A stretch of DNA of 64,000 bases from a virus (Duplodnaviria > Heunggongvirae > Uroviricota > Caudoviricetes): IMG/VR virus record IMGVR_UViG_3300049783_001441. One strand, given 5' to 3'. The translations under genes and the position numbers were made by a program. Every line of letters begins with the position of its first letter. The first letter of the stretch is position 1. Positions 16,290 through 50,331 of this stretch are shown one piece after another. The notes under the pieces were generated by a model. It ran no database searches and was not told where the DNA came from. It saw only the letters and a list, made by a program, of their open reading frames with translations.

Positions 16290-16892
16290 TTACCTCAACT
16301 TCGCGTAGGCGCGGGGTACGGTCATTGCGAGCAAGGCAAGGCTGATACTGACCAGCGCAATCAGCAGGTACAGACCCAACATACTCACCCGGCGTTGGTT
16401 GCGCTGTCCGGCTGTAATGCGGGTCTCGCGGGCTTTCTCGACCAACAGAGCGCCTTCGCGGGTAATGTCGCCCTGGAGGATAGCGGTTGCAGCCGCCTCC
16501 TTTTCGCGAGCGCCACCACCGTTTTTGGTGCGCATCTTCTCGATAGACTGCGCCAATTCTGCGGGGGTATCGTCAGAGTACTTGGCGTACACGCGGCGGT
16601 ACCGCTTGCTGAAGCCTTGCTCTTCCAGTTGGTTACGGATCAGCACCTTGGTCGGGTCCGTGTTGGCGGCCCCGGCTCCGATAGCACTACCTACGATCGA
16701 GACAACCGCGCCCGCAGCCGCCAAGGCGACATTGATCGGGGGTAACGGCAGCATTACGCCGATCGTGGTTAGTGCTGAACCCACCGCAACCGTGCCGCCG
16801 CCTATCGCCGTCTGCGCTGCGATACCTTTCTCTACCCGCTCAACTTCCGTTGGCGTTGGCGTGTGGAGTACGGGTGGCTGGGACGGCAGCAC
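16290..16892 (-). CDS. tail-anchored membrane protein
   Basis: hydrophobic ALAAAGAVVSIVGSAIGAGAA plus C-terminal helix LGLYLLIALVSISLALLAM. Confidence 0.45.
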   Translation of the reverse strand: MLPSQPPVLHTPTPTEVERVEKGIAAQTAIGGGTVAVGSALTTIGVMLPLPPINVALAAAGAVVSIVGSAIGAGAANTDPTKVLIRNQLEEQGFSKRYRRVYAKYSDDTPAELAQSIEKMRTKNGGGAREKEAAATAILQGDITREGALLVEKARETRITAGQRNQRRVSMLGLYLLIALVSISLALLAMTVPRAYAKLR

Positions 16893-17308
16893 TACGCCAC
16901 CTCAAGCGCCGCGTCCGGCCCCGGAGCCGGGAACAGCGCGACCAGCACGACTAGCGCAATGAGGGCGAAGATAGCGGCAACTCCGCCGATCCATGCCCAC
17001 TTGTTTTCGCCACGGAAAACGTCTAGGTAACTGGGTGGGTTCAGCAGCGCGTTTTCGGCGTCTTCGTTCGCTTGTAGCGCCAACTCTAGGTCCACGGCGG
17101 CTTGATCGAGGTCGCCTTCGTCGTTGGCGCAATCGTCGAGACGCCCTTCCCACTTGGCGTACCACGCGCTTAGCTTCTTATTGCGGTACGACTTCTTACC
17201 GTCCGCTTTGGCAGCCATGTAACCATCATACAGCCGTTGGGCCTTGGCGCACGAGGTCTTTTCAGGCGTGGCCGCTAGGCGGCTCGGGCTGGGTTTAGAT
17301 GGTCGCAT
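16892..17308 (-). CDS. tail-anchored membrane protein
   Basis: C-terminal helix WIGGVAAIFALIALVVLVALF. Confidence 0.45.
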   Translation of the reverse strand: MRPSKPSPSRLAATPEKTSCAKAQRLYDGYMAAKADGKKSYRNKKLSAWYAKWEGRLDDCANDEGDLDQAAVDLELALQANEDAENALLNPPSYLDVFRGENKWAWIGGVAAIFALIALVVLVALFPAPGPDAALEVA

Positions 17309-17411
17309 TGTAACTCCGGTGGGGCAACCTATCGCAATAAACCCCCGGAACCAACTGGTTCCGAGGGTTTAGGCGTGACTACGCTTGAGTTACCTCGCGC
17401 GTGGCCTTCGG

Positions 17412-18629
17412 CTAGAAGTCGAGGTCAGCGACCGTAATCTGCGAGGTCTTGGTGGTCTTGCGGGGCTTGCGGGCCTTCGGCTTGGTGGTCTTTGCCTTCG
17501 GGGCGGCCTTTGCCTTTGCCTTTGCCTTTGCCTTTGCCTTCGGGGCGGCCTTTGCCTTCGGGGCGGCCTTCGGTGCGGCCTTTGCCTTGGCGCGGGCGGC
17601 GTCACGGGCAGCGTTGAGCTTCAGCCACTTGGCGGCTACTGGCTTGATCTTCGCGGCTTCGGCAGTGCTGGGCTTGTGCAGTTGCGACTGGCTGGAGACA
17701 GCCTTGACGCGGCCTTGCAGGCTTGCAGTAGCGCGGACAGTGAGCTTGCCCTTGCTAGCGCCGCTCGTGCCGCGGCCCACGTAGAAGCCAGTTACCCAAC
17801 CGGCACCAGTCTCGTAGCGCACGGGCTGGCCTAGCGACGGGACTGCGGTGAGCGCCTTACCGGAATCGGTGGCGGCGGTCTTCTTTGCGGCGGGAGCTTT
17901 GCGCTTCGCGGTAGCTTTGCGCGTAGCCGGAGCGGCGGTCTTCTTAGCGGCAGTCTTCTTTTTGGCCGGAGCTTTGCGCTTTGCCGGAGCGGTCTTCTTT
18001 GCAGCGGTCTTCTTTGCCTTGGTATCGCGCTCGCTAGTCGAGCCCGGCCCGCTGCGTGGGCGTCCGCCTGCCGGTGCCTTGGCGGTCTTGCGCTTCGCCG
18101 CGGGAGCTTTGCTCGTCGGAACCAGCTTCATGCCGCGGATAGCGGCGAGCGAGCGCAGCTCTGCGAGGGAGAGTTCCTTGCAGTTGGCCGCGGCAGCAGC
18201 GGTAACCGGAGCACCGAGTGCGAGCGACCATGACGAACCGCTCTTGTTGGCCTTGCTGCCGGCGAACTTGTAGTTCGCGAGGCAACGGGCCTGGGTGGCT
18301 GCGCCGGTAGCCTTGACGGCGATCTCGGCGACGTTACCCTTGCGGATAGACACTTTCACCGGGATGCTGGACAGCTTGCTGCCGGCACCGAGGCGGAGCT
18401 TAGCGGTGTACCAGACGGTAGCGCGCTTGGCGTTACCCTTGGTTTCCTTGCGGCGGTTGTTGATTGCGGCCTGAATCTTGGCGGACTCGGCAGCGGCGGG
18501 TGGGTAGCGTTTAAGCAGTGCTTTGGTAGCAACGATCATGGGAGGAACCTCCGTCCAAACGGACATAGTGTGCGGGGCTCCAAACAAAGCACCCGGAGAC
18601 AGGGTAACCCCTGGTCCGGGTAACGGCAA
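17412..18629 (-). CDS. Lys/Ala/Pro-rich histone-H1-like basic DNA-binding protein
   Basis: 405 aa; long KAKAAPKAAPKAKAAPKAKAKAKAK and KKTAAKKTAPAKRKAPAKKK tracts encoded by GCCTTT-type simple repeats (about 17500-17600). Confidence 0.55.
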   Translation of the reverse strand: MPLPGPGVTLSPGALFGAPHTMSVWTEVPPMIVATKALLKRYPPAAAESAKIQAAINNRRKETKGNAKRATVWYTAKLRLGAGSKLSSIPVKVSIRKGNVAEIAVKATGAATQARCLANYKFAGSKANKSGSSWSLALGAPVTAAAAANCKELSLAELRSLAAIRGMKLVPTSKAPAAKRKTAKAPAGGRPRSGPGSTSERDTKAKKTAAKKTAPAKRKAPAKKKTAAKKTAAPATRKATAKRKAPAAKKTAATDSGKALTAVPSLGQPVRYETGAGWVTGFYVGRGTSGASKGKLTVRATASLQGRVKAVSSQSQLHKPSTAEAAKIKPVAAKWLKLNAARDAARAKAKAAPKAAPKAKAAPKAKAKAKAKAKAAPKAKTTKPKARKPRKTTKTSQITVADLDF

Positions 18630-18669
18630 CTGGCGTGCCGGGTAACTAATAGCGTCGGGCCGCTCTCAA

Positions 18670-20631
18670 TTAGCCACAGGCGCAGCCGCCCCAGTCGTGC
18701 GTAACTTCTCCGCAGTCTTGGCACTGGTCCAAGTAAGGCGCGTGGGGGTCTTCGTCCGTGGGGCCGGTAAACTCTGGCGTGCTGAACTTGTTCGCGGTGA
18801 TCCAGTTGAGCTGGTTCGTGGCGGTGTGCAGCGCGGCGGCTTCGGCGGGTAGCATTGCAGTGGGCACGTCACCTCTGAAGGTGTCCAAGTTCGCGCCAGT
18901 CTCGTTGTCCTCCTCGTCGTCATCGAGGTAGGCGTCTAGGGCGAAATCGTCTTCGTCTTCGTCTTCGTCCTCGCTCGTGCCGTCTTCGTCCGTGCCGTCT
19001 TCAATCTCGGACTCCACGTCGTCGTGCTCGATGTCGGCGGGGGTAACGGCTTCGTCACCGGCTAGCTCGGCTGCGTGGGCGCTCTGGTTCAGTGCGCGCC
19101 ACTGGACCCACATCAGGTCGTCGCCCATACTCTCGCCAGCTTCCGGGTGTACGCAGTCAAAGTCGAATAGCGCGGACAACCACTTAGCGTGGGCGTCGAG
19201 CGACCCAAGGCATTCACCGTAGCGCTCGCCACCCAGCGAAACGAAGGCTTCGTTCAGCCGGCGGATCACCTTGTCGGGGTTACCCTTTTTGTGGTCCTTA
19301 GCGACCTTGCGCACGGTCTGGCGCACAAGCTCGTCTTCATCCGTCTCGGACAGCCTACCTAGCACCGGGGCGTCTGGGAGCCCGGCGAGTAGCTCTACGG
19401 TGTAGTCGCGGAGGTCTGCGGCGTTCTGCGCGTCAGCCTCTTCGTTGTGCTCTTCTGGGGTCATATCGTCGGGGGTCGTAGCTTCGCCCTCTTCGGCGGC
19501 TTCGGCGGCTTCGGCGGCTTCGTCCGACTCCGCGTGGTACTCGGCTTGCTCGTCTTCGTGGTCGCGCGCATCGAAGTCTAGCTCTTCCGGCTCTTCCGGC
19601 TCTTCCGGCTCGTGCGCTACGTCGCGCTCGTGCATCGGGGTGTCCCCGGACAGCGCCGCTACCCGCCCCTTGGTCGGCATCGGCACGCCCGCGCCCAGTT
19701 GCGGGGTCGCTGCGGCTTCGGCTTCGCGCTTCGCTTGCAGTTCGTCCAGAATGCCGTCAACGCGGGCGTTGAGCGCGGCTTCGGTCTCCGCGGGCTCGGT
19801 CTCTGGTTCGGTCTCTGGTTCGGTCTCGGGGTCCATCATCACAACCTCACCGACTGCCGGGCGCCACGGGATCACGCCACTGAAGAACGGGTCGAGCGCC
19901 GCGCCGACGCGCGGCGTCGGGATGGCGGCGGCAAGCTCGGTCTCGGCTTCACCCATAAAGGATCGCGCAATGGTTTCGGACTCGGCAAGCTCCATCGCCA
20001 CCCCGTCGAGGTCTTCGCAGTGCTCGGTGAGCAACCACGTCGGGTCCTCTGCTCGGTACACGCGCAAGACGAGCGCCGCGAACCGGGGGTAGATGGTGTC
20101 CCAGGACTCTTCGGACTGCGCGGCTACCAGCTTTGCCAACGCCTTGAGCAGTCGCCGACTGGTTAGGGGCTTCGCTTCGGGGTCGGCGGCAGGTGTAGTC
20201 GGGTTCATGGCTTCGTCGCGGAACTCGTAGAGCCTAGCTCGCCACGTATCGCCGGGAGAGGTCGCCTCAAGGCCGGGGTACCATGCCAGCAACCGCGCCG
20301 CCTGGACCGTCTGTTGTGCCGCCTTGTCGTGGTCCATACCCGTACCGACCGCCTCTGAATACGCCGCGCTAAGTTCGCCCAGCACGATCGCAGCGGAGTC
20401 GAGGTCTTCCGGGTCATCTTCGCGGGTCTGGTGAGCTTGCTCCAGCAGGTACCGCGTGGTCTGCGTCCACCCCTTTTCATCCGTGTCGACGGCGTCTAGT
20501 GCCTCGCGGATCGCGGCTCGGGTCGCCCACACGTTGTCTTCAGTGGCTTTGTGGATCGCGGCCTTCAGGTGCTTCAGCGCGGCCTTTCGGACTTGCTTAA
20601 GTTCGGCCTTGGCGGCCTTTTTCTTGCTCAT
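18670..20631 (-). CDS. large acidic low-complexity protein with C-terminal Cys cluster
   Basis: start MSKKKAAKAELK at 20631; E/D-rich repeat blocks (ETEPETEPETEP, EPEEPEEPEE, AEAAEAAEAAE, EDEDEDEDD); C-terminus CQDCGEVTHDWGGCACG. Confidence 0.55.
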   Translation of the reverse strand: MSKKKAAKAELKQVRKAALKHLKAAIHKATEDNVWATRAAIREALDAVDTDEKGWTQTTRYLLEQAHQTREDDPEDLDSAAIVLGELSAAYSEAVGTGMDHDKAAQQTVQAARLLAWYPGLEATSPGDTWRARLYEFRDEAMNPTTPAADPEAKPLTSRRLLKALAKLVAAQSEESWDTIYPRFAALVLRVYRAEDPTWLLTEHCEDLDGVAMELAESETIARSFMGEAETELAAAIPTPRVGAALDPFFSGVIPWRPAVGEVVMMDPETEPETEPETEPAETEAALNARVDGILDELQAKREAEAAATPQLGAGVPMPTKGRVAALSGDTPMHERDVAHEPEEPEEPEELDFDARDHEDEQAEYHAESDEAAEAAEAAEEGEATTPDDMTPEEHNEEADAQNAADLRDYTVELLAGLPDAPVLGRLSETDEDELVRQTVRKVAKDHKKGNPDKVIRRLNEAFVSLGGERYGECLGSLDAHAKWLSALFDFDCVHPEAGESMGDDLMWVQWRALNQSAHAAELAGDEAVTPADIEHDDVESEIEDGTDEDGTSEDEDEDEDDFALDAYLDDDEEDNETGANLDTFRGDVPTAMLPAEAAALHTATNQLNWITANKFSTPEFTGPTDEDPHAPYLDQCQDCGEVTHDWGGCACG

Positions 20632-20689
20632 ATTGGTGTCCTCTGCGCATAAAGTCCACCGGGTGCGCGCTACACGCCGGTTCGCCGGG

Positions 20690-22366
20690 TTAGACCCGGA
20701 TATTTCGCAACGCCCGGAGCCGGAGTGCCTTGATAGCACCGGTCGGCCCGACGATGGAACTCACAGTGCGTATCCGGCGCAAGCCGGCTCGGCTCGTCAC
20801 CCATAGCGGAGAATTAGCGTCCATCACTGTTTCGTAGCCCGACTCTGCGCGTCGACCCCACACTCCGGCGTTGTCCAGCCACACCACCGGCACCTTGCGG
20901 CCAATGGCCTCGTACTGGACTTTAGCGTCACTATCGCCCCACGCCACCACTCCGGCCACGTTCAGCGTGCGGATCTGGTCCATCCACCACGCGGTGAGAT
21001 CTAGATGCCCGGTGTAGCTGTCCATAGGCTTGGCTCTCTTGGCCGCTCCGAATGCTTCGGTAGGCGTCCCGTTGAAGTGCAAAACCACGCCCACCAAGGG
21101 GTTTGACGTGAAGGATCGCACCATCGGCAAGCTGGTTCGGATCAGGTCTGCGCATGAGCCGCTGATGTCGATGAGCACTAGCGACACGGGTGGATCCAGT
21201 TCCGCCCTGCGTGCCGAGCTAAGCCGGTACCGTTTGGAGACCAGTTCACGGATGAGCTTCGCTCCGTCAATTCGCGGGGACTCTAGGTAGCCCGCGCCCA
21301 CGCTGAACCCGTCGAACAGGGCTTCGAGCGCCATGGTAATATCGCGTTGCAGCTTCGGGTGAGGTGCCGGGTACTTCGTGATGAGGTCGTCGTACTGGTC
21401 CGTATAGTTACGCATGCCGCTCATGGGCGTGCCGTTGCGCCCGGCTCCGCCGCTCGACCCGGCCACAGGGGGTGGCCCGACCAAGTCTTCTAGCTCTTTG
21501 AGTAACTCCTGCTCGCGCTGGCTTGCGCCCGCGTCGTCGTCAGCTTCCCACTGACCCTCTGCCTCGCCTTCGCCTTCGCCGGCTTTGGGGTCTTTTGGCT
21601 CTATAGGCTCGCCCTTTTCGCCCTTTTCGTCTTCGCTGTCTTCGCCTTCGCCGCCCTCTTGGCCGTCTTCGCCTTCGCTCTCTCCGTCTTCGCCGCCGCC
21701 ATCGCTCTCGCCTTCACCGTCTTCGCCCTCTTCCCCTTCTCCGTCCTCGCCATCTTCGCCGTCATTGCCATTTTCGCCGTCCTCGCCGTCCTCGCCATCG
21801 TCAGCCTCTCCGTCTTCGTTTTCGCTGGGTTCGTTTTCGTCGTCTTCGGGGTCAGCCCCCGAGCCTTCGCCTTCACCGTCTGCATCTTCGTCGTCGTCTT
21901 CGCCGGGTTCGCCTTCGCCGCCGCCTTCACCGCCCGGCTCTTCGTCTTCGTTACCGTCTTCGTCTTCGTCTTCGTCATCTTTACCGGGCTCACCCTTACC
22001 GTCGCCGGGCTCACCGTCGCCGCCCGGTCCCGGAGGGTCGCCGCCGGGTGGGTTGTCGTCTTCATCCGGGGGTATTCCGCCGCCGCCGCCGCCGGAAGGC
22101 GGGTCTTCGGTGTCTTCGTCGGAGTCTTCCTGCTCGGGTTCAGGTGGTGCGTTCACGGGTGCAAGCACCGTGGCACCGCCCATCTGCTCAACCCACTCGA
22201 ACAGCTCTTCTAGGCCCAGTGCCCGTGTCTCGTAATCCTCCGTGGGGACTGGCACGCGCACCGGGTCGCCAATGCCAGTTAGCTTCAGCCACGCACCGCC
22301 GTCTTGCGGCGTGATGGTAAGCTCGGTGCCGAGTAGGGCAGCGTCCAGCAGGGCGTCTAGTGTCAT
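20690..22366 (-). CDS. vWA-domain protein with long Gly/Glu/Asp-rich linker
   Basis: MIDAS-type VSLVLIDISGSCADL at the C-terminal domain; about 250-aa GEGEDGEDGE low-complexity region; 4-nt overlap with the MoxR gene. Confidence 0.6.
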   Translation of the reverse strand: MTLDALLDAALLGTELTITPQDGGAWLKLTGIGDPVRVPVPTEDYETRALGLEELFEWVEQMGGATVLAPVNAPPEPEQEDSDEDTEDPPSGGGGGGIPPDEDDNPPGGDPPGPGGDGEPGDGKGEPGKDDEDEDEDGNEDEEPGGEGGGEGEPGEDDDEDADGEGEGSGADPEDDENEPSENEDGEADDGEDGEDGENGNDGEDGEDGEGEEGEDGEGESDGGGEDGESEGEDGQEGGEGEDSEDEKGEKGEPIEPKDPKAGEGEGEAEGQWEADDDAGASQREQELLKELEDLVGPPPVAGSSGGAGRNGTPMSGMRNYTDQYDDLITKYPAPHPKLQRDITMALEALFDGFSVGAGYLESPRIDGAKLIRELVSKRYRLSSARRAELDPPVSLVLIDISGSCADLIRTSLPMVRSFTSNPLVGVVLHFNGTPTEAFGAAKRAKPMDSYTGHLDLTAWWMDQIRTLNVAGVVAWGDSDAKVQYEAIGRKVPVVWLDNAGVWGRRAESGYETVMDANSPLWVTSRAGLRRIRTVSSIVGPTGAIKALRLRALRNIRV

Positions 22367-27514: not shown

Positions 27515-28014
27515 TCTTCACTGCCCGCAATGCTCGCGGCCCACTCAAAGGCGCTGGTCAGACTGACGGCCCGGCCTGTAGGTCCGGCATGGTCCACCCG
27601 GAACAGGCTCGCGCTGTCTACGCCTCCCCGGACTTCGTAGATCGCCCAGCTTTGCTCGGTGTACGTGCAACCACGGCCCGCCATAATCCGCGCACCGGGT
27701 AACCTTACCTGCACCAGCTCAAACCACTGCGTTTCGAGCATGGCCAGGGTCGCGGGGTCGTTGAGCACGGGCACGAGTCGCGCCGCCACCGCTTCGGTGT
27801 CGCCGTCCAAACGGCACAAGGGCGCGTCTCCGCCGATAGCGACATACGGCCCTTCAGTGACCGTCCGCACTCGCGGTATTGGCCCCTTCGAGTAAGTAAC
27901 TTGCATACGGGCTTCGATGATCCCGCCGTTACGCATTACGCTTTCGCCGCGTGCTATCGCAGCTTGAATCGGTATCAGTGCCCGTAAGGCGTCGGCTAGT
28001 GATCCTGCACTCAT
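27511..28014 (-). CDS. hypothetical protein
   Basis: 167 aa; operon overlap. Confidence 0.45.
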   Translation of the reverse strand: MSAGSLADALRALIPIQAAIARGESVMRNGGIIEARMQVTYSKGPIPRVRTVTEGPYVAIGGDAPLCRLDGDTEAVAARLVPVLNDPATLAMLETQWFELVQVRLPGARIMAGRGCTYTEQSWAIYEVRGGVDSASLFRVDHAGPTGRAVSLTSAFEWAASIAGSEE

Positions 28015-29102
28015 GGCGTGGCATCCTCGGGGTTTGTTGGGGTGGCGGGCTCGGTAGCCGCGGCGTCCAGGGCGTCACCGAGCAGCTTGCGGGCTTCAGT
28101 CACGCGGTCGTGGCTCGCGGTGGCCTGCCCTTGGAGGAGCTTAGCCGCTGCTTCGTAGAAGCTTGTGAAGCCGTCACGCTCGGCTGGGCCATGCAACCCA
28201 CCTTCGAGCCCGCCGTCGCCCAGCATCGCCGCGTGGGCGTCGTAGGCGGTTTGCGCCTCTGCGTCGGTGGCGCCTTCCGGGTAACCGGTAACCTGCCAGA
28301 GTCGAGCAGCGGTTGCCGGGCGTCGGCTGCTGACCGAGACCCCTAGCACTAGCTCCGCGGCCTTTGCAGCGGCTATCAACTCAACGACCGCCGGGTGTGC
28401 AAGTGCGGCTTTGCGCGCTGCAATGGCCTGGTGCGCGTCCCGGACTTCGCGAACCCCTTCGTACCATTGCTCGGTCGCACGGGAGGTTCGCGGGTAGAGC
28501 GGCTGGCGCCCTTTGGCGGACAGGGCAGCGGCCCGCCCTTCAGCGCGGTAGCGCTCGGGGTCCACCGTGTAGCAAGGGGCGTCCGGGCGAAGGGTTAGCT
28601 CCACCTGCAACTCGCTTAGCTTGGGCGGGGTGGTGTCCTCTTCGTCGCCTTGCTCGCCGCAGCGGTCGCACTCATAGTCCGTGTCCACGTCGTCTTCGGT
28701 GACTGGCCAGCCTCGGAACACGTAGCGAGTCTCGTCGCAGCCATGGCCCTCGCCATGGCAACCCCAGTACAGGTAGACCCCGTTGGCGTTGTACAGGTCG
28801 GTCGGGCCGTCGCCAATCATGGTCACCATGACTTCGTTGAGACGGGCAACGCACTCGGCCTTGCCCCAAACACCACCGGGAATCCCGCGCTGGTTGGCCG
28901 ACCACAGGTCGTGCGCGGACACGGTGTCGTGGGTGGAGTAACCTCGGTCGATGTCCCGTTGTAGGTGCGCACGGGTCGCTTCGATAATCCACTCCTTGGT
29001 AAGTGGGGTCGCAGCGAGGGTTTCGAGGTGCGCGGCGCGTTCGGCGCGAGCGGCTTTGCGTGCGGCCACAGCGGCGGGTTGCAGGGCTTCTAGGTGAGTC
29101 AT
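28011..29102 (-). CDS. hypothetical protein with central Cys/His cluster
   Basis: 363 aa; WGCHGEGHGCDETRY...YECDRCGEQGDEED. Confidence 0.45.
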   Translation of the reverse strand: MTHLEALQPAAVAARKAARAERAAHLETLAATPLTKEWIIEATRAHLQRDIDRGYSTHDTVSAHDLWSANQRGIPGGVWGKAECVARLNEVMVTMIGDGPTDLYNANGVYLYWGCHGEGHGCDETRYVFRGWPVTEDDVDTDYECDRCGEQGDEEDTTPPKLSELQVELTLRPDAPCYTVDPERYRAEGRAAALSAKGRQPLYPRTSRATEQWYEGVREVRDAHQAIAARKAALAHPAVVELIAAAKAAELVLGVSVSSRRPATAARLWQVTGYPEGATDAEAQTAYDAHAAMLGDGGLEGGLHGPAERDGFTSFYEAAAKLLQGQATASHDRVTEARKLLGDALDAAATEPATPTNPEDATP

Positions 29103-31561: not shown

Positions 31562-32359
31562 TTACTCCGTACCGAGTAGCAGTTCTAGCCCGCCATCACC
31601 AGCCGCAACGCCGGACAACTCGCCGTCCCACTTGTCAATGGCGCGGAGTCGCAGCGTGCGGTCTGTTACCGTGTCGGCCAGCAGCGTTTGGGCGGCAGCT
31701 TCGGCGGTCGCTACAGCCAGCAACGCGGCGGCCTCTCCGCCTGCGGTAGCCGCGGCTTGTAGCGCCTCGGTCTTGATGCGCGCTAAGTCGTTCAACGCTT
31801 CAGCAGCGGCTTGTTCGGCGATTTGCTTGGCTTCGATGGCGTGCTGGAAGTCTTCGTCGTAACGGAAATCCGTCAAAGACACCTCGCCAAGCTCAATCCA
31901 GCTGCGGTTGAGAACGGGCTCAAGCGCGGTCTGGATGGCATCCTTGACTTCCGCGCGCTTCGTGACCAACTCTTCGGCGGTATACTGCGCGGTAGCGGCC
32001 TTCACGGACTCGTTGAGAGCCGGCTGAATGACCACGTCGTTGAGCGCTTCCATCGTGCCGATGGTCTGGTAGATGTCGCGGACGTGGTCGCCGTCGAGTC
32101 GGTACGAAAGCACCACCTCGGAGGTAACCACCTGCATATCCTTGGAGGAGGCGACGGCGGTGATGGTCATGCGTTGCAAGCGGGTGTCGTACGTGATCAT
32201 GGAGGACATGGGCGACATGCCGTACCAGCCTTCGGTCCAGACTCCATCTTGAGTCTCGGACCACGAGGTCCAGACGCCGACGTAGCCGGGGGTGACTTTA
32301 CTGCATGCGCTGGTGAGGGTAAGTAGGGTGAACAGGGCAAGGGCGACAAGTGATCGCAT
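31562..32359 (-). CDS. SPFH/band-7 (HflC/K-like) domain lipoprotein
   Basis: signal peptide plus lipobox MRSLVALALFTLLTLTSAC; SPFH-like core DMQVVTSEVVLSYRLDGDHVRDIYQTIG...ALNDVVIQP...YTAEELVTKRAEV; Ala-rich coiled-coil tail. Confidence 0.55.
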   Translation of the reverse strand: MRSLVALALFTLLTLTSACSKVTPGYVGVWTSWSETQDGVWTEGWYGMSPMSSMITYDTRLQRMTITAVASSKDMQVVTSEVVLSYRLDGDHVRDIYQTIGTMEALNDVVIQPALNESVKAATAQYTAEELVTKRAEVKDAIQTALEPVLNRSWIELGEVSLTDFRYDEDFQHAIEAKQIAEQAAAEALNDLARIKTEALQAAATAGGEAAALLAVATAEAAAQTLLADTVTDRTLRLRAIDKWDGELSGVAAGDGGLELLLGTE

Positions 32360-32970: not shown

Positions 32971-33208
32971 CTTCAGTATCCTCGTTGTCGGTGTCGTCTA
33001 GCCCGCGGTCCCAGCGTTGACACACGCCGTAGAAGCCCTCGCCCTTGCCCCTTCGGCAGTCGTGGATCCCCTCGCAGCGGATCCCCGATGCGCGGGCTTG
33101 GTCCGAGTCGGCGTTACAGGGTTTGCCCCGGCTCACCATCGTAACGCCGCTGCCCGGTTGCCCCAACCCCAGGGCAGTCAGGAGATCGTGTAGCTTGCGC
33201 TTACTCAT
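32960..33208 (-). CDS. small Cys-containing hypothetical protein
   Basis: start MSKRKL at 33208; the track ORF extends to 33256. Confidence 0.35.
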   Translation of the reverse strand: MSKRKLHDLLTALGLGQPGSGVTMVSRGKPCNADSDQARASGIRCEGIHDCRRGKGEGFYGVCQRWDRGLDDTDNEDTEDAN

Positions 33209-33641
33209 GGTCGGTGTCCTCCGCGGCGACTGCTGCCGGCTCCAGAGCCCACGCATCGAACAAGGCCCCGTGACTGTCGAGGGGCACCACGACCCGGCGC
33301 TTACCGGCGGTGCCGTCTTGGTTGACGAGGGCCAGCGTTACCTGCCCACCGGGGGCAAACCCGCTGCCGGAGAACGCGACAACCTCTGCGAGTTGGCCAA
33401 ATATATAATCCACATGCGCACCCACACAAGACTTACCCCGTACCCGGTCTCCGACCTTCCAGCCGGTTACCTCCTCGGCCCACGCGGCTTTGGCGGCGCG
33501 GTGAGCGACCGAGGCTTTGTTCAGCGCACGCTTAGCCGCTACGGTCTCCGCTTTGGTGCTTAGCACCGCGAGGTGGGCCGCTGATCGGTATTCGATCTCG
33601 TCTTTAGTGCTCATGGGGTTGTCGCTGTCTCGGTTACTCAT
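33201..33641 (-). CDS. hypothetical protein
   Basis: 146 aa; RBS CCGAGGACACCGACCATGAG. Confidence 0.45.
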   Translation of the reverse strand: MSNRDSDNPMSTKDEIEYRSAAHLAVLSTKAETVAAKRALNKASVAHRAAKAAWAEEVTGWKVGDRVRGKSCVGAHVDYIFGQLAEVVAFSGSGFAPGGQVTLALVNQDGTAGKRRVVVPLDSHGALFDAWALEPAAVAAEDTDHE

Positions 33642-34104
33642 GGTCGGTGTCCTCGGTTGGTGGTAGGTTGGTCAGAACGTGGAGGGTGGCCGCTCTGCAA
33701 CCCCGACCCCAGTAATACACGATAGCCGCGTTCAGTGTGTCTAGCGCGCTCTCGGGTACGTCTAAGAAGCCAGCTAGTGGGGCCGGGCCACCTCCGGGCT
33801 CCGCCAACTGCCAGCCGCCGGGCTCGTTGGACAGTATGCGCCCGGTCGCGAGTTCCCGCAACGCCAAGCGGCTCGCGGGGTCCGTGCGCACCAAGGCGGC
33901 GAAAGCCCAGCCGGCGGGGGGTTTCGGGCGTCTCGTGAGCAGGCGGGCGCTCGGGCTGTACCGGGTGTCGCCCTCGCGGGGTGCGTTGTAAGCGTTGGTC
34001 AGGTTCGCGTTGAGTCGGCGTAGAATTGGCTTCGGCAGGTTGGCCGCGCCGATCGCGACGGCGAGTTCTTCGATCTGGAGAGGAGTCAAGGTGCAGTCGT
34101 ACAT
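33634..34104 (-). CDS. hypothetical protein
   Basis: 156 aa. Confidence 0.45.
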   Translation of the reverse strand: MYDCTLTPLQIEELAVAIGAANLPKPILRRLNANLTNAYNAPREGDTRYSPSARLLTRRPKPPAGWAFAALVRTDPASRLALRELATGRILSNEPGGWQLAEPGGGPAPLAGFLDVPESALDTLNAAIVYYWGRGCRAATLHVLTNLPPTEDTDHE

Positions 34105-35567: not shown

Positions 35568-36011
35568 GGTGTCCTCCTCTGATTGTGCCTGAACCCTAAG
35601 CCACTGCTTTGGGGCTGTCAACACAAAGTGGTTTTTAGCGTCTAAAACTGGCGTTTTCAAGTGTCACAACCCGTCGTGGAAACTGAACCTACCCCGGTAA
35701 TCGGCGTTTGCCCGTGGAAAAGTGTTGGCATGTCAAGAGTTTTCGTCTGCCCTCAAGTTGAGGCAATCGCCGTTGTTGCCCTGGGGCCCTCACCCGCAAC
35801 TTGCGCAGCTCACCCCGGCTCTTTCTCCCGTTTAGCCTCTTTCCCTGCTCCGGCTCGACCCGGCTTTGGGCTCGATTTCGGGTCAATTTCGGCCCCTAGC
35901 CTCATGCGCACGAACATCGTTCAGATCGTGTCCGTGTACGGAAAGTCGCCAATGCACGAAAAGGTTGGGGGTTTATAGATGTGATAGAGAGAGAGTTGTA
36001 AAGTCTATGTA

Positions 36012-36029
36012 TAGTATAGACTACTATAC
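36012..36029. repeat. AT-rich palindrome AGTATAG-ACTA-CTATACT
   Basis: 7-bp inverted arms with 4-bp spacer inside the AT-rich stretch 35960-36030. Confidence 0.5.
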
Positions 36030-36048
36030 TGCTCACACTGCCTAGCCT

Positions 36049-36130
36049 GTGAAAGTTAGTGGTTGCTTCCGCGATACCATGCGACTAGTAAAAAGCGTCG
36101 TTTTCGGCGAAAAAAAGCACTAACTTTCAC
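36049..36130. promoter_or_regulatory. 13-bp inverted repeat GTGAAAGTTAGTG ... CACTAACTTTCAC (56-bp spacer), operator-like
   Basis: perfect 13-bp arms at 36049-36061 and 36118-36130; further half-site copies AACTTTCA at 36145 and TAACTTTCAC at 36472-36481. Confidence 0.5.
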
Positions 36131-36176
36131 AAGGGGGTCGTTGAACTTTCATAACCGTACCCTCCGTGAGTACTTT

Positions 36177-36662
36177 GACCGGCTGATAATGCGTGTAATT
36201 CAGCCCGTGTACGGAAATGCTGGGAGCACACACAAGCGTATCTCACGGTGGAAACTCCCGTATTGCTGAAAAGGTTACATTTCTGACATTTCCGTACACG
36301 GAATCCCAGATATATTGAAGACCCCCCTCCCAGACACAATCGGCGTGTTTTGGCCCAAAGCCCCCAAATGACCCCGTTGGCGTTCAAACTGGCATACGGA
36401 CAAAACGGACAGAAAATGGTCGTTTCAAAACTAGCCACAAGTGGTCGCGGAGTGGCTCACTTACCGGTTTTTAACTTTCACGGCAAAACACCCACTTCGG
36501 CGCATAGGCGGGCTTCATGGCTAGCTTTCAGCGAAAATGTAAGTGCGTTAAAACGCCAAAACCCTAGTAGCCAGGGGCTTATCGCCGAATCAGGCTCTCC
36601 AACCTCGCCATTACCCTGCTTTGCCCTGCATAGTGCCCGCAAAAGTCGACCGGCTGATAATG
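36177..36662. repeat. 15-bp direct repeat GACCGGCTGATAATG (36177-36191 and 36648-36662), contains a GATAAT -10-like hexamer
   Basis: exact 15-mer twice, 471 bp apart. Confidence 0.5.
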
Positions 36663-36805
36663 GACCCCCTAGCCCGTGGCGACCTTTCGCCGGCCTTGCC
36701 CGAAAACGGGGCTTCCGGTGTCCGCTGTGGGTGCCCGTGGCCTCTCAACCGTCCGGGGGCTATGGAGAGAGCGCGCACACTGCGCAAACACCCCACGAGG
36801 TCTCC

Positions 36806-37181
36806 CATGGCTACCCACATTGACACCACCGGCTTTAATTCGGTCCTAGTCCCCCTCTCTGCACTCGCTCGCGGGCACGACGGCCCGGTCGGCGCTCGCT
36901 TCGCCATGATGACCGTACCCACCGGTGCGGTCTGCTTCGTGCAGTCACAGTTCTTCGTAAACGACGCAGCCGGCCTAGCGGTCGCTCAAGTCGTGGACGG
37001 GGTCACCGACATTTCCACGGGCACCGCTGCGGGTAACCCTGCCGTCACGGGCGTCATTACGCTGCGGATTACGCACCCCGACGAGGCGGTGTGCATCACC
37101 GACGACACCCGCTCGACAATCTTCACCCAGAGCGACGTGGATGTCAGCGTACAATGGTCGAAGTACGGGTTCAACTCGTAG
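36806..37181 (+). CDS. hypothetical protein (125 aa), first rightward gene
   Basis: ATG 36806 (MATHIDTTGF) with GAGG upstream; high-GC coding character resumes here. Confidence 0.45.
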
Positions 37182-39723: not shown

Positions 39724-39769
39724 GCGCACCCGGCTAGGCTCGCCGCTGTTTCGTTGCGCACCCGGCTAG
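39724..39769. repeat. 14-bp direct repeat GCGCACCCGGCTAG (39724-39737 and 39756-39769)
   Basis: exact copies 32 bp apart in the intergenic region upstream of 39861; flanked by a possible hairpin GGCGGCGAG...CTCGCCGC plus TGTTTCGTT. Confidence 0.4.
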
Positions 39770-41028: not shown

Positions 41029-41721
41029 ATGCCGCCCAAACGCCCCGCCCGCAAGGTCATAGTCAAACCCGAACCCAAGCTCCGGCTGCACAAAGGCCGC
41101 CGATACGCGTTGCATTACTTGGCGAACGAAGCCTTGGTGTTCCCAGCGATGGACCGCCAACTGACCACCCTCTACAAGCCGGCGGCGGCGCTTGCCGAGA
41201 AGCTGATCAAGGCGCAGTATCCGCCCGCAGATATGAAGGTGCTGGCGCGACACGGCACCGCCGCGCCTAAAGCCGGTTGGCACTTCCTGCGCGTGCGAGA
41301 CGGGGTAACTCGGTACGCTGAAAGTATGCTCTTCGTGCTCCCGTGGGACGACAACCGCCTAGCGCCGCTGCTGCACAACCACCCGTCCGGCGACCGGGCG
41401 AAGGGGCACGGGATGCGGGTTGGCACCCCCATCGTTCGAGTCGACGCGGCTAAGGTGTCCGACGCTCGCTTCGCACCTATCGTGCAGTACGACGACATGA
41501 AGGACGCGCTGCAAAGCCGTAAGGGTACCACCCAGCGAGCGCTAACCACCGTGATCAATGGAGCCCGCACCCTCGAAGACGTGGCCGCGCTCTGGCCTGA
41601 CGCGTTGCGGTACCGCGCGGAGCTTCAGGGTGTCAGTCCGAGACTCGGCACAGGCCGGTGGAGCGGCGGTATGCCCACTCCCATAGCCGGTCTGGACATG
41701 GACGACGTGGTGCTCGGGTAG
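41029..41721 (+). CDS. hypothetical protein
   Basis: 230 aa. Confidence 0.45.
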   Translation: MPPKRPARKVIVKPEPKLRLHKGRRYALHYLANEALVFPAMDRQLTTLYKPAAALAEKLIKAQYPPADMKVLARHGTAAPKAGWHFLRVRDGVTRYAESMLFVLPWDDNRLAPLLHNHPSGDRAKGHGMRVGTPIVRVDAAKVSDARFAPIVQYDDMKDALQSRKGTTQRALTTVINGARTLEDVAALWPDALRYRAELQGVSPRLGTGRWSGGMPTPIAGLDMDDVVLG

Positions 41722-41747: not shown

Positions 41748-42104
41748 CTAGACGCGCACGCGGGTCAGGAATGTCCGCGTGAAGCGTATCGGGTCGTCAA
41801 GGTTTTCGCGGACATACTCGGAGATCCGGGCCACGCCACCGACGCCTACCGTCACGGTAACGAGCGTGTTGACCAACCCACCCGGCTCCATGAGCTTCGG
41901 GGTTCGTAGGTTCAGCGGGTACCCTAGAGTGGACGCTAAACGGAGCGGGCGCATGCGCAGCAACCCGGAGAAGCTCGCCTCGCGGTTAGTCTCACGGGAC
42001 AAGGCGTAGGCGTCGTCCAAGTCTGCCATGAGCGAGTCCGGCAGCGATACGATGTACGAGGTGCCGTCTAGCGCGAGAATGCGGGTAACGAAAGTCTGGG
42101 GCAT
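41748..42104 (-). CDS. hypothetical protein
   Basis: 118 aa; part of a short minus-strand block embedded in the rightward arm. Confidence 0.4.
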   Translation of the reverse strand: MPQTFVTRILALDGTSYIVSLPDSLMADLDDAYALSRETNREASFSGLLRMRPLRLASTLGYPLNLRTPKLMEPGGLVNTLVTVTVGVGGVARISEYVRENLDDPIRFTRTFLTRVRV

Positions 42105-45652: not shown

Positions 45653-46141
45653 ATGCAAGAGCTAGTACCCACATGGGCGCAGGAAATCCGCTGGGGTAAG
45701 ATCTTCGACGAAGAGACGCTAACCGACGCGCTCGCCGAGCTGGTAGACGACGGCTACAAGCCAGACGACGCGGTCGCGCTCCTCCTCCGCGAAGTAGCCG
45801 AGAACGCCACGGAGGAGGTGGCCACCCAACTGGCTAAGCTGCTCAATCAGATCCACACGCCGGGGCCAGCGGGCACAGTGTTGCGCCTCGTCGGTACACC
45901 GCTCATCCTCGCCTTGGAGGAGTGGGCAGTTAACGCGATTCGCGGCCTCAAGCCGAGCCCCGAACGCCGACTCAAGCGAATCCGTAAGCGCGCCGACCGG
46001 GCCGCTGGTTACGCCCCAGCAGAGGCCGCCGCAATCCGCTTCTTCGCGGAGGTTCACCAGGGCGATATGGTAGCTTTGGGGCACCTTGCCGTGCTCTCCA
46101 GCTTCAGCCGCAACGAGAAAAAGGCCGCGCGAAACGCGTAA
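45653..46141 (+). CDS. hypothetical protein
   Basis: 162 aa; stop embedded in the CGCGTAAC repeat cluster. Confidence 0.45.
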   Translation: MQELVPTWAQEIRWGKIFDEETLTDALAELVDDGYKPDDAVALLLREVAENATEEVATQLAKLLNQIHTPGPAGTVLRLVGTPLILALEEWAVNAIRGLKPSPERRLKRIRKRADRAAGYAPAEAAAIRFFAEVHQGDMVALGHLAVLSSFSRNEKKAARNA

Positions 46142-46161
46142 CGCGTAACGCACCGCGTAAC
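46135..46161. repeat. three CGCGTAAC 8-mers in 27 bp (46135-46142, 46142-46149, 46154-46161)
   Basis: read directly; related GCGTAAC/GCGTAAGC motifs at 45520-45556 and the palindrome at 52835-52848. Confidence 0.45.
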
Positions 46162-49989: not shown

Positions 49990-50313
49990 ATGGACATCAA
50001 AGCAGGTATCGAGTCGCGGGCACTAGGCGAGGTTGTACGGGCCGTCAGGGCGCACACCAAGGTTAACCAGAAAGACCTCGCGGATAGGTTGGGCTGGAAA
50101 ACGTCGTCGTTGTCGGCCATCGAGAACGGGCGCAACGCGGTAGACGCGGCAGTCGTGGGGCAACTTTGCACCGTGCTGAAATTCGAAAAGGGCAAACTTG
50201 CGCAGGCCGTGGTCGCCACGATCAACACGCTACGCGCGAAGGAAGGCACCGCAAAGCGCCATGAACTCTACATGGTCCACGAGGCGAACCTACTGGCGGG
50301 TGGAGCCGAGTAA
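49990..50313 (+). CDS. XRE-family helix-turn-helix transcriptional regulator
   Basis: VNQKDLADRLGWKTSSLSAIENGRN HTH. Confidence 0.7.
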   Translation: MDIKAGIESRALGEVVRAVRAHTKVNQKDLADRLGWKTSSLSAIENGRNAVDAAVVGQLCTVLKFEKGKLAQAVVATINTLRAKEGTAKRHELYMVHEANLLAGGAE

Positions 50314-50331
50314 GCCGAGTAAGCCGAGTAA
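50305..50331. repeat. (GCCGAGTAA)x3 tandem 9-mer giving three consecutive in-frame TAA stops for the XRE gene
   Basis: read directly. Confidence 0.6.

What the first reader, a model, noticed from the sequence alone, without database searches (positions are those of the whole stretch)
35661..36805. 1.1-kb lower-GC control region dense with operator-like repeats
It lies between the leftward operon start (35567) and the first rightward gene (36806). (1) 13-bp inverted repeat GTGAAAGTTAGTG/CACTAACTTTCAC (36049-36130) with two more AACTTTCA(C) half-sites at 36145 and 36472. (2) The 13-mer CCGTGTACGGAAA three times (35932, 36205, inverted at 36289). (3) A 15-bp direct repeat GACCGGCTGATAATG (36177, 36648) containing GATAAT. 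(4) An AT-rich tract with palindrome AGTATAG-ACTA-CTATACT (36012-36029). This is the organisation expected of a lysis-lysogeny switch and/or replication origin with at least two different DNA-binding specificities. No obvious repressor gene sits inside it; the XRE regulator is 14 kb away and the small basic ORF at 36063-36269 is unconvincing.
Basis: seen in the sequence. Interest (0 to 1): 0.6.

Follow-up and report, generated by a model that had tools for sequence, protein, structure and literature searches.

The report
Repeat-dense non-coding control region of phage
The largest non-coding stretch of a very novel large phage-like genome holds three families of exact repeats around the most easily melted DNA in 64 kb, so it is most likely an ordinary promoter and replication-origin control region, but with no relatives its function cannot be proven from sequence.

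Summary
Window 35568-36806 is a 1239-nt non-coding gap, the largest among 91 called genes, between a ~29-kb leftward gene array and a rightward cluster. It holds five independent exact repeats of 13 nt or more (0.018 expected; 0 of 500 shuffles). They form three word families (A, B, C) found nowhere else in ~78.6 kb of this genome. Its AT-rich core (35958-36027) is the least stable duplex in the window (5.7 sd) and is bracketed by A and B sites. It has no coding potential, Rfam family, tRNA or DnaA box. Contig breaks inside it are assembly bubbles at SNPs, not termini or inversions. A near-consensus leftward promoter abuts the leftward gene. The 15-mer C with a downstream AGCCCGTG half-site is a duplicated rightward module. 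The best reading is a composite cis-acting DNA hub: divergent promoters with operator-type sites for at least two DNA-binding proteins, probably also the replication origin, as in lactococcal c2 phages. A lysis-lysogeny switch is not supported: the flanking genes are not recognisable regulators and the XRE gene's neighbourhood lacks the motifs. No relatives exist, so conservation could not be tested. This is a new member of a known kind, of modest interest.

The parts
35568..36806 (.). Whole non-coding region between the leftward gene (start 35567) and the rightward gene (ATG 36807)
   Evidence: It is the largest gap (1239 nt) among 91 called genes; the next real gaps are 343 and 290 nt. Every ORF inside it scores at or below the level of spurious ORFs. 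It has no GC3 signal and no Rfam or tRNA hit.
35593..35621 (-). P_L1: candidate leftward sigma70-type promoter, TTGACA-17 nt-TAGGGT, about 19 nt of leader before the SD GAGGAGG and ATG 35567
   Evidence: It is the only perfect TTGACA with a TANNNT -10 at 16-19 nt spacing on either strand of the 64 kb (sequence). Its function is inferred, not shown.
35931..35944 (+). A1 site, TCCGTGTACGGAAA; its core CCGT-GT-ACGG is a short dyad
35958..36027 (.). AT-rich core: the least stable duplex of the whole window (DNA-unwinding-element-like), with (T)ATAG(A) repeats in both orientations
   Evidence: It is the global minimum of nearest-neighbour free energy at window sizes of 40, 70, 100 and 200 bp: -1.16 against a mean of -1.574 (sd 0.072), or 5.7 sd.
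36013..36030 (.). Palindrome AGTATAG-ACTA-CTATACT, which carries TATAGT and TATACT -10-like boxes on both strands
36023..36053 (-). P_L2: second candidate leftward promoter, TTCACA-19 nt-TATAGT, whose -35 lies inside B1
   Evidence: It is one of only 3 intergenic hits of the flexible promoter scan in 64 kb. The 19-nt spacer is suboptimal. Inferred.
36048..36072 (+). B1, left arm of the long palindrome (TGTGAAAGTTAGTG perfect, then an imperfect extension)
   Evidence: I1. It folds with z = -4 on both strands. The C/A SNP at 36069 falls on an already mismatched position of the extension.
36107..36131 (+). B2, right arm of the palindrome (CACTAACTTTCACA)
36144..36151 (+). B3 half-site AACTTTCA, 22 nt after the same word in B2 (about 2 helical turns)
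   Evidence: (D5).
36177..36191 (+). C1, GACCGGCTGATAATG (contains GATAAT), followed after 10 nt by AGCCCGTG, which is the start of A2
36205..36219 (+). A2 site, CCGTGTACGGAAATG; left arm of a perfect 15-nt inverted repeat
   Evidence: I2; z = -4.3.
36287..36302 (-). A3 site, an inverted copy and the right arm of the 15-nt inverted repeat; a TATATT box follows at 36311-16
   Evidence: The 36251-36320 stretch is the second least stable duplex of the window.
36472..36481 (+). B4 site, TAACTTTCAC
   Evidence: (D6).
36648..36662 (+). C2, the second copy of GACCGGCTGATAATG, 145 nt upstream of ATG 36807. It is the only promoter-like element for the rightward genes.
   Evidence: No -35/-10 pair lies nearer the ATG.
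36671..36678 (+). AGCCCGTG, an A-type half-site 8 nt after C2, which shows that the C-plus-A module is duplicated
   Evidence: The alignment of the C1 and C2 contexts conserves only the 15-mer and this word.

Best explanation
The region is a composite cis-acting DNA hub. It is not a protein gene and not an RNA of any described family. It sits at the main point where transcription diverges in a large, very novel phage-like genome.

Proposed mechanism, all inferred:
1. The leftward 29-kb gene array is driven by a near-consensus promoter directly next to its first gene (P_L1). The remaining ~1.1 kb must therefore serve something else.
2. An extremely AT-rich, easily melted 70-bp core is bracketed by two families of sequence-specific protein-binding sites. 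Family A is a short dyad, CCGT-GT-ACGG plus AAA, present three times with one copy inverted. Family B is AACTTTCA(C), present four times, two of them as a 14-bp perfect palindrome. This is the layout of a replication origin: an unwinding element flanked by initiator or accessory sites. It lies where forks leaving in both directions would travel in the same direction as transcription.
3. Rightward transcription starts from a duplicated module, the 15-mer C containing GATAAT followed 8-10 nt later by an A-type (half-)site. The A-binding protein would therefore also act as an operator-bound regulator of rightward expression. The upstream copy would give a ~600-nt leader that begins with the A2/A3 hairpin.

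The arrangement works like the early/late intergenic origin-plus-promoter region of lactococcal c2-type phages. The proteins that bind these sites are not identified.
For: Shown by tool results:
- It is the largest non-coding gap, with no coding potential and no Rfam or tRNA hit.
- It has five exact repeats of at least 13 nt against 0.018 expected.
- The motif families are unique to this locus in about 78.6 kb of the genome.
- Similarity between copies stops at the edges of each word, so these are discrete selected words and not leftovers of a duplication.
- The 15-mer plus AGCCCGTG module is duplicated.
- 35958-36027 is the global duplex-stability minimum, and the second minimum is also in the region.
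- P_L1 is the only perfect TTGACA/TANNNT pair in the window. Two of the three intergenic promoter-like hits are in this region.
- All genes from about 6.6 kb to 35.6 kb run leftward, and the next genes run rightward.
- None of the four population SNPs falls in a repeat core.

Literature precedent:
- The c2-type origin lies in the non-coding region between divergent early and late modules, is flanked by promoters and has no ORFs. The different ori types share no sequence similarity (PMC7150918).
- The PLE non-coding region has four repeat types, of which only one is the initiator's iteron (PMC7145576).
Against: - No relative exists, so nothing about conservation or covariation could be tested.
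- No initiator, repressor or other DNA-binding gene is recognisable next to the region. The replication genes (PolA, helicases, DUF3987) lie more than 25 kb away.
- The B copies are few, of mixed orientation, and only one pair is in phase. They are not a classic tandem iteron array.
- Cumulative GC skew shows no minimum here, only a sign change that follows the coding-strand switch.
- There are no DnaA boxes.
- The consensus promoter scanner found nothing. The host, and therefore its promoter grammar, is unknown. The closest homologues of the phage's SPFH gene are from Gram-negative bacteria.
- The absence of SNPs from the repeat cores is not significant: about 69% would be expected by chance.
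- AT-rich minima also mark ordinary strong promoters.
Confidence: 0.4

Rival explanations
1. It is a purely transcriptional switch with no origin function. A and B are operators for phage-encoded regulators that time or choose between leftward and rightward transcription, possibly by DNA looping between A1 and A2/A3. The AT-rich core is simply a set of back-to-back promoters.
For: - The A core is a dyad typical of sites for dimeric HTH proteins.
- A2 lies 13 nt after the promoter-like 15-mer C1, and a half-site follows C2.
- The -35 of candidate P_L2 lies inside B1.
- A1 and A2 are 273 bp apart, exactly 26.0 helical turns.
- TATAGT, TATACT and TATATT boxes lie in the two least stable stretches.
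Against: - The four other divergent promoter gaps in the window need only 132-343 nt, and P_L1 already abuts the leftward gene. A length of 1.2 kb is therefore unexplained.
- No regulator gene flanks the region.
- The neighbourhood of the XRE gene lacks the motifs.
- The instability minimum is far more extreme than at the other promoter gaps.
Confidence: 0.3
2. The region encodes one or more non-coding RNAs. For example, a ~450-nt RNA could start after C1, with the A2/A3 15-bp stem at its 5' end, or the B1/B2 hairpin could belong to a small RNA. The repeats would then be RNA helices and not protein-binding sites.
For: - Both long inverted repeats fold strongly (z about -4).
- The region is non-coding.
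- A promoter-like 15-mer precedes the A2/A3 hairpin.
Against: - Perfect palindromes fold equally well on both strands, so the z-scores add nothing beyond the repeats themselves.
- Folds of the whole region are not unusual, with z = -0.6 and -0.7.
- There is no Rfam match even at E <= 1.
- Terminator-like sites do not exceed chance: 2 found, 2.0 expected.
- A1, B3, B4 and C2 have no pairing partner.
- Covariation cannot be tested because there are no homologues.
Confidence: 0.1
3. It is another essential cis site: a packaging (pac/cos) site, a partition centromere, or a T5-type injection-stop region.
For: [quoted passage not shown]
- Centromeres and pac sites are also clusters of repeats.
Against: - All the contig ends inside the region are k-mer bubbles at SNPs 36069 and 36616, not physical ends.
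- It has none of the DnaA boxes that define the T5 iss.
- Among the roughly 60 window proteins scanned against Pfam, no ParA/ParB or terminase was recognised.
Confidence: 0.1
4. It is an invertible promoter segment (inverton). The 14-nt inverted repeats A1/A3 flank a 344-nt segment carrying the AT-rich core, the B palindrome and C1. A2/A3 flank 67 nt. The small tyrosine recombinase would flip the segment.
For: - The inverted repeats are perfect at 14-15 nt.
- The enclosed segment holds promoter-like elements.
- The genome encodes a 270-aa Phage_integrase-family recombinase.
Against: - All the independent metagenome assemblies that span the repeats are colinear with the window. The only breaks are at SNPs.
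- The recombinase is 30 kb away.
- The A core (5-bp arms and a 2-bp spacer) is too small to be a tyrosine-recombinase core site.
Confidence: 0.04
5. It is non-functional DNA: decaying or horizontally acquired sequence, or a MITE-like insertion whose inverted repeats are terminal repeats.
For: - GC is lower than in the rest of the genome.
- SNP density is somewhat higher here: 4 in 1.24 kb, against roughly 10 sites in the other ~14.4 kb compared.
Against: - Exact 13-15-nt words, kept in several copies with no similarity around them, argue for selection.
- There is no target-site duplication next to A1/A3.
- No other copy exists anywhere in the genome or in any collection searched.
Confidence: 0.06

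Closest known systems
Origin-plus-promoter intergenic region of lactococcal c2-type (Ceduovirus) phages
   Same: It is a non-coding region between two divergently transcribed gene modules. It is flanked by or contains promoters, has no ORFs, and contains the origin. The sequence diverges so fast that different ori types share no similarity (PMC7150918).
   Different: - The c2 region is about half the size, and it was shown experimentally to drive plasmid replication. Nothing has been tested here.
- The host and phage lineage are unrelated, and there is no sequence similarity.
- Here there are three distinct exact word families and two long perfect palindromes.
Non-coding region (NCR) of the Vibrio cholerae PLE satellite, with a RepA_N iteron origin
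   Same: It is a non-coding region with several distinct repeat families. One of them has 13-bp inverted sub-repeats and is the initiator's binding site. The other families have other or unknown roles (PMC7145576).
   Different: - PLE encodes its RepA_N initiator next to the NCR. No initiator is recognisable next to this region.
- The PLE repeats converge on a poly-A tract, which is not seen here.
Phage lambda immunity region (oL/oR operators with the divergent promoters PRM/PR) and lambda ori (four dyad iterons plus an AT-rich tract). These facts are from established knowledge and were not retrieved here.
   Same: Dyad-type sites occur in multiple copies and overlap or adjoin promoters. The origin has iterons next to an AT-rich unwinding tract.
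   Different: - In lambda, repressor and cro genes flank the operators, and the origin lies inside the initiator gene.
- Here the flanking genes are orphans without an HTH, and the sites spread over about 750 bp.
Phage T5 injection-stop (iss) untranslated region
   Same: [quoted passage not shown]
   Different: - The T5 iss lies in the terminal repeat and is defined by eight paired DnaA boxes.
- This region has no DnaA box, and there is no evidence that it lies near a genome end.

Membership tests
Lysis-lysogeny (immunity) switch | Repressor and anti-repressor (HTH) genes transcribed divergently from the operator region | tested here: not met
   The flanking 263-aa and 124-aa proteins, and the next genes, have no Pfam, PHROG or PDB match. 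The AF2 model of the 263-aa protein is unusable, with pLDDT 53.
Lysis-lysogeny (immunity) switch | The operators are recognised by the element's own repressor, which usually also has sites at its own gene | tested here: not met
   The XRE HTH gene at 49990-50313 is 13 kb away. No A, B or C word, and no CCGTNNACGG dyad, lies near it.
Lysis-lysogeny (immunity) switch | Temperate lifestyle (an integrase with an attP site, or a plasmid-prophage module) | tested here: inconclusive
   The only candidate is a 270-aa Phage_integrase-family protein directly after the PolA gene. No prophage copy was found in 185,579 genomes by motif-pair scans. The flanking proteins have no homologue in 5.8 billion proteins.
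Iteron-type replication origin (phage or plasmid) | An AT-rich DNA-unwinding element next to the binding sites | tested here: met
   35958-36027 is the global stability minimum of the 64 kb (5.7 sd). It is bracketed by A1, 14 nt to the left, and B1, 21 nt to the right.
Iteron-type replication origin (phage or plasmid) | Several copies of an initiator-binding repeat, usually direct and in helical phase | tested here: inconclusive
   B has 4 copies, one of them inverted, and only B2-B3 are about 2 turns apart. A has 3 copies, one inverted, and A1-A2 are 26.0 turns apart. This is not a tandem array.
Iteron-type replication origin (phage or plasmid) | An initiator gene adjacent to the origin, or containing it | tested here: not met
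   No Rep, O-like, DnaA-like or primase gene is recognised within 10 kb. The replication genes lie more than 25 kb away. The neighbours are dark matter, so a novel initiator is not excluded.
Iteron-type replication origin (phage or plasmid) | The region supports initiation of replication | not testable with these tools
   This needs marker-frequency sequencing or a cloned-origin assay.
DnaA-box elements (oriC-like, T5 iss) | Clustered DnaA boxes, TT(A/T)TNCACA or TTGTCCACA | tested here: not met
   There are no matches with up to 1 mismatch in the region plus 200 nt on each side.
Inverton (invertible promoter) | Inverted repeats flanking a promoter-bearing segment | tested here: met
   A1/A3 are 14 nt, perfect, and flank 344 nt. 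A2/A3 are 15 nt and flank 67 nt.
Inverton (invertible promoter) | Both orientations are present in populations, and a recombinase lies nearby | tested here: not met
   All the assemblies that span the repeats are colinear, and the breaks are only at SNPs 36069 and 36616. The recombinase is 30 kb away.
Structured non-coding RNA (any Rfam family) | A match to a covariance model, or structure beyond that of shuffled sequence | tested here: not met
   There are 0 hits at gathering score and 0 at E <= 1. Whole-region z-scores are -0.6 and -0.7. Only the palindromes themselves fold well.
Genome terminus (cos site or terminal-repeat junction) | Independent assemblies end at the same physical position | tested here: not met
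   The ends at 35942 and 36068 are a 127-nt k-mer overlap at the 36069 C/A SNP. The end at about 36743 is SNP 36616 plus 127.
CRISPR array or solitary CRISPR repeats | Regularly spaced direct repeats of 24-40 nt with unique spacers | tested here: not met
   The longest repeats are 13-15 nt, irregularly spaced and of mixed orientation. The real CRISPR array found in L195 belongs to an unrelated host locus, and its only similarity to this region is a chance-level shared 8-mer.

The most novel reading that the evidence does not exclude
The perfect 14-15-nt inverted repeats A1/A3 and A2/A3 could be recombination sites of a phage-encoded invertible switch. The switch would flip a 344-nt cassette carrying the AT-rich promoter/unwinding core and the C1 promoter, redirecting transcription or replication priming between the 29-kb leftward array and the rightward tail-fibre-like and lysis cluster. 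A less exotic variant is that the three word families define a new type of phage origin, read by an initiator with no known relatives.
Probability: 0.05. Interest if true: 0.65.

Novelty: new member of a known kind. Interest (0 to 1): 0.3.

Why it matters
The host genome is a large phage-like element longer than 78 kb in which almost every protein is an orphan. In such dark-matter genomes, cis-acting hubs are the most practical entry point for experiments. The A, B and C words are ready-made baits for DNA pull-downs, which would identify the element's regulators or initiator. The region is also the obvious candidate for an origin or promoter cassette. As a biological phenomenon it is expected: many phages and plasmids concentrate promoters, operators and origins in one AT-rich non-coding region. 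A specialist would not be surprised.

Tried and rejected
1. **Relatives for a conservation test.**
   - Megablast and blastn against 50,697 phage records found nothing. blastn against 72,556 plasmids found nothing.
   - The search for related loci with both flanking proteins in IMG/VR found nothing.
   - Word-indexed homology searches of the 263-aa and 564-aa proteins returned only themselves.
   - Single 14- and 15-mers in IMG/VR gave only chance hits with no further similarity.
   - Two-arm motif patterns gave 0 hits in metagenome, viral and genome collections. The metagenome collection does not even hold this element.
2. **Band_7/SPFH route.** Its best homologues are cellular genes in Gram-negative contexts, with no synteny.
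3. **Exhaustive HMMER search with the 363-aa protein.** This gave three relatives and one locus, L195.
   - L195 has a 29-repeat CRISPR array at the same relative distance from the anchor gene, which briefly looked meaningful.
   - It is a host Cas7-CRISPR locus followed by defence-type genes (two GmrSD_N proteins), with no operon synteny and no spacer match. I rejected it as irrelevant.
4. **Genome terminus or inverton.** This was suggested by contig breaks inside the region. I rejected it because every break is a k-mer bubble at a SNP.
5. **Hidden small genes.** Rejected by the codon-usage model and the GC3 profile.
6. **Phage-wide promoter motif shared with other gaps.** None was found. Other gaps have their own small local repeats.
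7. **Sigma-28-like reading.** B resembles TAAAGTTT and C resembles GCCGATAA, but the two words never lie in -35/-10 register with each other. I judged this a coincidence (my own inspection of the sequence).
8. **Structure prediction of the 263-aa neighbour.** The model has pLDDT 53 and I did not use it.
9. **GC skew.** It is uninformative because it follows the coding strand.
Full report
**1. What is there**

Window 35568-36806 lies between a leftward gene (263 aa, start 35567, SD GAGGAGG) and a rightward gene (124 aa, ATG 36807). I called genes across the window with a codon-usage model trained on its own long genes. This 1239-nt gap is the largest of 91 inter-gene gaps. The next real ones are 343, 290 and 247 nt, and the 529-nt gap contains a gene that other callers annotate.

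Every ORF inside the region scores at or below the level of spurious ORFs: log-odds of 0.15 or less, and mostly negative. Real genes score 0.15-0.52. No reading frame shows a GC3 signal. GC is 53% overall and 43-50% at 35900-36450, against about 63% for the window.

**2.

All four repeat claims are at, or within 1 nt of, the stated coordinates.

| Family | Word | Copies |
|---|---|---|
| A | (T/C)CCGTGTACGGAAA(TG) | 35931-44 (+), 36205-19 (+), 36287-302 (-) |
| B | CACTAACTTTCAC | 36049-61 (-), 36118-30 (+); shorter copies at 36144-51 and 36472-81 |
| C | GACCGGCTGATAATG | 36177-91 and 36648-62, both (+) |

- In family A, the core CCGT-GT-ACGG is itself a short dyad, and A2/A3 form a perfect 15-nt inverted repeat.
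- In family B, the first two copies form a 14-nt perfect palindrome that extends to 25-nt arms at 84% complementarity.
- The palindrome AGTATAG-ACTA-CTATACT is at 36013-30.

There are five independent exact repeats of at least 13 nt. Dinucleotide-preserving shuffles give a mean of 0.018, and 0 of 500 reach five. The region is the top tile of the window for long inverted repeats. The tiles with more direct repeats are low-complexity coding repeats at 16-22 kb.

Exact copies of all three families are confined to this locus in the 64 kb. They are also absent from a further 9.1 kb to the left and 5.5 kb to the right of the same genome. AACTTTCA occurs four times in the window, all of them here.

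Alignment of the contexts shows that similarity stops at the edges of each word. These are therefore discrete words and not remnants of a segmental duplication. There is one exception: both C copies are followed, after 10 and 8 nt, by AGCCCGTG. At C1 this is the start of A2. So a C-plus-A module is duplicated.

**3. What kind of element carries it**

- The window has no nucleotide match among 50,697 phage records or 72,556 plasmids.
- Recognisable genes are few:
  - a split family-A DNA polymerase;
  - a 270-aa tyrosine recombinase;
  - an AAA_5 ATPase;
  - M15 and transglutaminase-like peptidases;
  - a Band_7/SPFH protein;
  - a muramidase;
  - a patatin-like protein;
  - a GNAT acetyltransferase;
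  - one XRE HTH protein.
- About 60 other proteins have no Pfam or PHROG hit.
- The same element, at 99.9% identity, occurs in about ten metagenome assemblies. It extends beyond both ends of the window:
  - to the left, a 2862-aa protein and a RecD-like helicase;
  - to the right, DUF3987, a ResIII helicase and a phiTE_072 phage domain.
  It is therefore a large phage-like genome, of which about 78.6 kb is in hand.
- Everything from about 6.6 kb to 35.6 kb is transcribed leftward. The region is the main divergence point.

**4. Leads that were checked and closed**

- *Contig breaks.* Several assemblies break inside the region, at 35942, 36068/36070 and about 36743, which suggested genome termini or an invertible segment. 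Every break is an assembly bubble at a strain SNP.
  - The left and right contigs overlap by exactly 127 nt (35942-36068) at the 36069 C/A SNP. This equals the largest k-mer size commonly used by metaSPAdes (from my own knowledge).
  - The end at about 36743 is SNP 36616 plus 127.
  - All assemblies that span the inverted repeats are colinear with the window.
- *RNA.* There is no Rfam family at gathering score or at E <= 1, and no tRNA or tmRNA.
  - The two long palindromes fold with z of about -4, but equally on both strands, as any perfect palindrome must.
  - The region as a whole is not unusually structured, with z = -0.6 and -0.7.
- *DnaA boxes.* There are none.
- *Terminators.* Terminator-like sites are at chance level.
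- *XRE protein.* Its gene's neighbourhood has none of the three words and no CCGTNNACGG dyad.

**5. Relatives**

- Both flanking proteins are orphans among 5.8 billion clustered proteins.
- Motif and protein scans of the viral, metagenome and genome collections found nothing.
- The closest homologues of the SPFH gene are cellular genes in Gram-negative contexts with Omp85, TamB and ECF-sigma genes. They show no synteny. They hint that the host may be a diderm bacterium and not an actinobacterium.
- An exhaustive HMMER search with a 363-aa, four-cysteine protein 6.5 kb away found three relatives at 37-40% identity and one locus, L195.
  - L195 carries a 29-repeat CRISPR array at the same relative distance from the anchor gene.
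  - It is a host Cas7-CRISPR locus followed by defence-type genes (two GmrSD_N proteins).
  - It shares only that one protein with the window, has no operon synteny, and has no spacer matching the window.
  - It is irrelevant to the finding.

**6. Internal evidence on function**

*Promoters.* I ran a flexible sigma70-type scan requiring a -35 matching at 5 of 6 or better, a TANNNT -10, and 16-19 nt spacing. It gives only 8 hits on both strands of the 64 kb. Three are intergenic, and two of those are in this region, both pointing leftward.

- P_L1 is TTGACA-17-TAGGGT at 35621->35593. It is the only perfect TTGACA hit and lies about 19 nt before the SD of the leftward gene.
- P_L2 is TTCACA-19-TATAGT at 36053->36023. 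Its -35 lies inside B1.

P_L1 sits outside the repeat zone, so leftward expression does not need the other ~1.1 kb. No comparable element lies near the rightward ATG. The only candidates there are the two C copies, with GATAAT at 36185-90 and 36656-61. C2 is 145 nt upstream of the ATG.

*Duplex stability.* Nearest-neighbour duplex stability has its global minimum for the whole window at 35958-36027, at every window size from 40 to 200 bp. At 70 bp the value is -1.16 against a mean of -1.574 kcal/mol per step, or 5.7 sd. The second minimum, 36251-36320, is also in the region. The core is bracketed by A1, which ends 14 nt to its left, and B1, which starts 21 nt to its right.

*Spacing.* B2 and B3 are about 2 helical turns apart. 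A1 and A2 are 273 bp apart, or 26.0 turns.

*Gap size.* The four other divergent promoter gaps in the window measure only 132-343 nt and are much less extreme in stability.

*Population variation.* Four SNPs fall in the region and none in a repeat core. About 69% would be expected by chance, so this is not evidence of constraint.

**7. Interpretation**

The best-supported reading (confidence 0.4) is a composite cis-acting DNA hub. It combines divergent promoters with operator-type sites for at least two sequence-specific DNA-binding proteins. It most likely also holds the replication origin: an unwinding core flanked by binding sites, placed where both forks would run in the same direction as transcription.

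This works like the early/late intergenic region of lactococcal c2-type phages. That region is non-coding, is flanked by promoters, contains the origin, and diverges so fast that different ori types share no similarity (PMC7150918). The PLE satellite shows that only one of several repeat families in such a region need be the initiator's iteron (PMC7145576).

| Reading | Confidence |
|---|---|
| Composite promoter/operator hub that probably includes the origin | 0.40 |
| Purely transcriptional switch | 0.30 |
| Non-coding RNA locus | 0.10 |
| Another cis site (pac, partition, T5-type injection stop) | 0.10 |
| Non-functional DNA | 0.06 |
| Inverton | 0.04 |

Only the anatomy and the statistics are shown. 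Every functional assignment is inference.

**8.

- The idea of at least two DNA-binding specificities in a control region is supported.
- The origin alternative is strengthened.
- A lysis-lysogeny switch is not supported. No regulator gene flanks the region, the XRE protein is unconnected to it, and nothing shows that the element is temperate.

**9. Novelty and interest**

This is an ordinary kind of feature, a promoter/operator/origin hub, in an extraordinarily isolated genome. I rate it a new member of a known kind, with interest 0.3. Its practical value is that the three words are ready-made baits for identifying the element's unknown regulators or initiator.

Noticed in passing
L195:1-3300 (Ga0055439_10000086): A host-type CRISPR locus. 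A Cas7 gene (PF05107, E = 5e-42) at 67-966 is followed by about 29 copies of the 37-nt repeat CCGGCCACACGGAGCACCGTGTGGCCCGTGTTGAAGC, with 35-49-nt spacers and repeats that degenerate at the 3' end. Two GmrSD_N proteins lie downstream, along with a homologue of the window's 363-aa protein. No spacer matches the window.
   Followed up: yes
window 28011-29102 (-): This 363-aa protein belongs to a small family (three relatives at 37-40% identity among 1.84 billion representatives) with four invariant cysteines (C115, C122, C145, C148). It looks like a zinc ribbon. One relative sits in a host defence island.
   Followed up: partly
window 2210-5870 (+): The family-A DNA polymerase is split into an exonuclease-like ORF (2210-3670) and a polymerase ORF (3667-5058). 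A small 270-aa Phage_integrase-family tyrosine recombinase (5058-5870) follows directly. No lox- or dif-like site was looked for.
   Followed up: no
window 33201-33221 and 33634-33654; genes 33201-33641 (-) and 33634-34104 (-): Two adjacent genes (146 and 156 aa) end with the same EDTDHE C-terminus. They share an identical 21-nt stop/start junction (TTACTCATGGTCGGTGTCCTC on the + strand). They are probably tandem paralogues with conserved translational coupling.
   Followed up: no
window 1-730 and L183:11167-19755: A 2862-aa giant protein (weak TSP3 and CBM_5_12 hits) starts inside the window's first 730 nt, on the - strand. Its N-terminal part has internal repeats with a 306-nt period (window 61-455).
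   Followed up: no
window 31562-32359 (-): The phage's Band_7/SPFH protein (PHROG_200, E = 6e-48) has its closest homologues (43-50% identity) in cellular genomes. The two contexts examined carry Omp85, and one also TamB and an ECF sigma factor. This hints that the host is a Gram-negative (diderm) bacterium, despite the genome's 63% GC.
   Followed up: partly
window 16800-22300 (-): Dense low-complexity coding repeats (periods of 6-60 nt, CTTTGCC / GCCTTCGCC types) lie inside the 375-, 653- and 558-aa proteins. They account for most of the window's direct repeats.
   Followed up: no
window 50304-50331; 46135-46161; 39724-39769: Other intergenic gaps carry their own small local repeats. AGCCGAGTAA occurs three times in tandem at the stop of the XRE gene. 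CGCGTAAC occurs three times before gene 46194. GCGCACCCGGCTAG occurs twice before gene 39861. No motif is shared among gaps.
   Followed up: partly
window 41737: A 9-nt insertion/deletion polymorphism (CGCTAGACG in most other assemblies) lies in the short gap between the convergent genes 41029-41721 (+) and 41748-42104 (-). The strain SNPs at 36069 and 36616 break many assemblies.
   Followed up: partly
window 36177-36191 and 36648-36662: Both copies of the 15-mer end in ATG and lie in ORFs that read DRLIM in the same frame. The ATG of C2 (36660) is in frame with the 124-aa gene and would extend it by 49 aa. The codon-usage signal there is weak (0.07, -0.02 and 0.18 per codon), so the annotated start at 36807 is kept.
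   Followed up: partly
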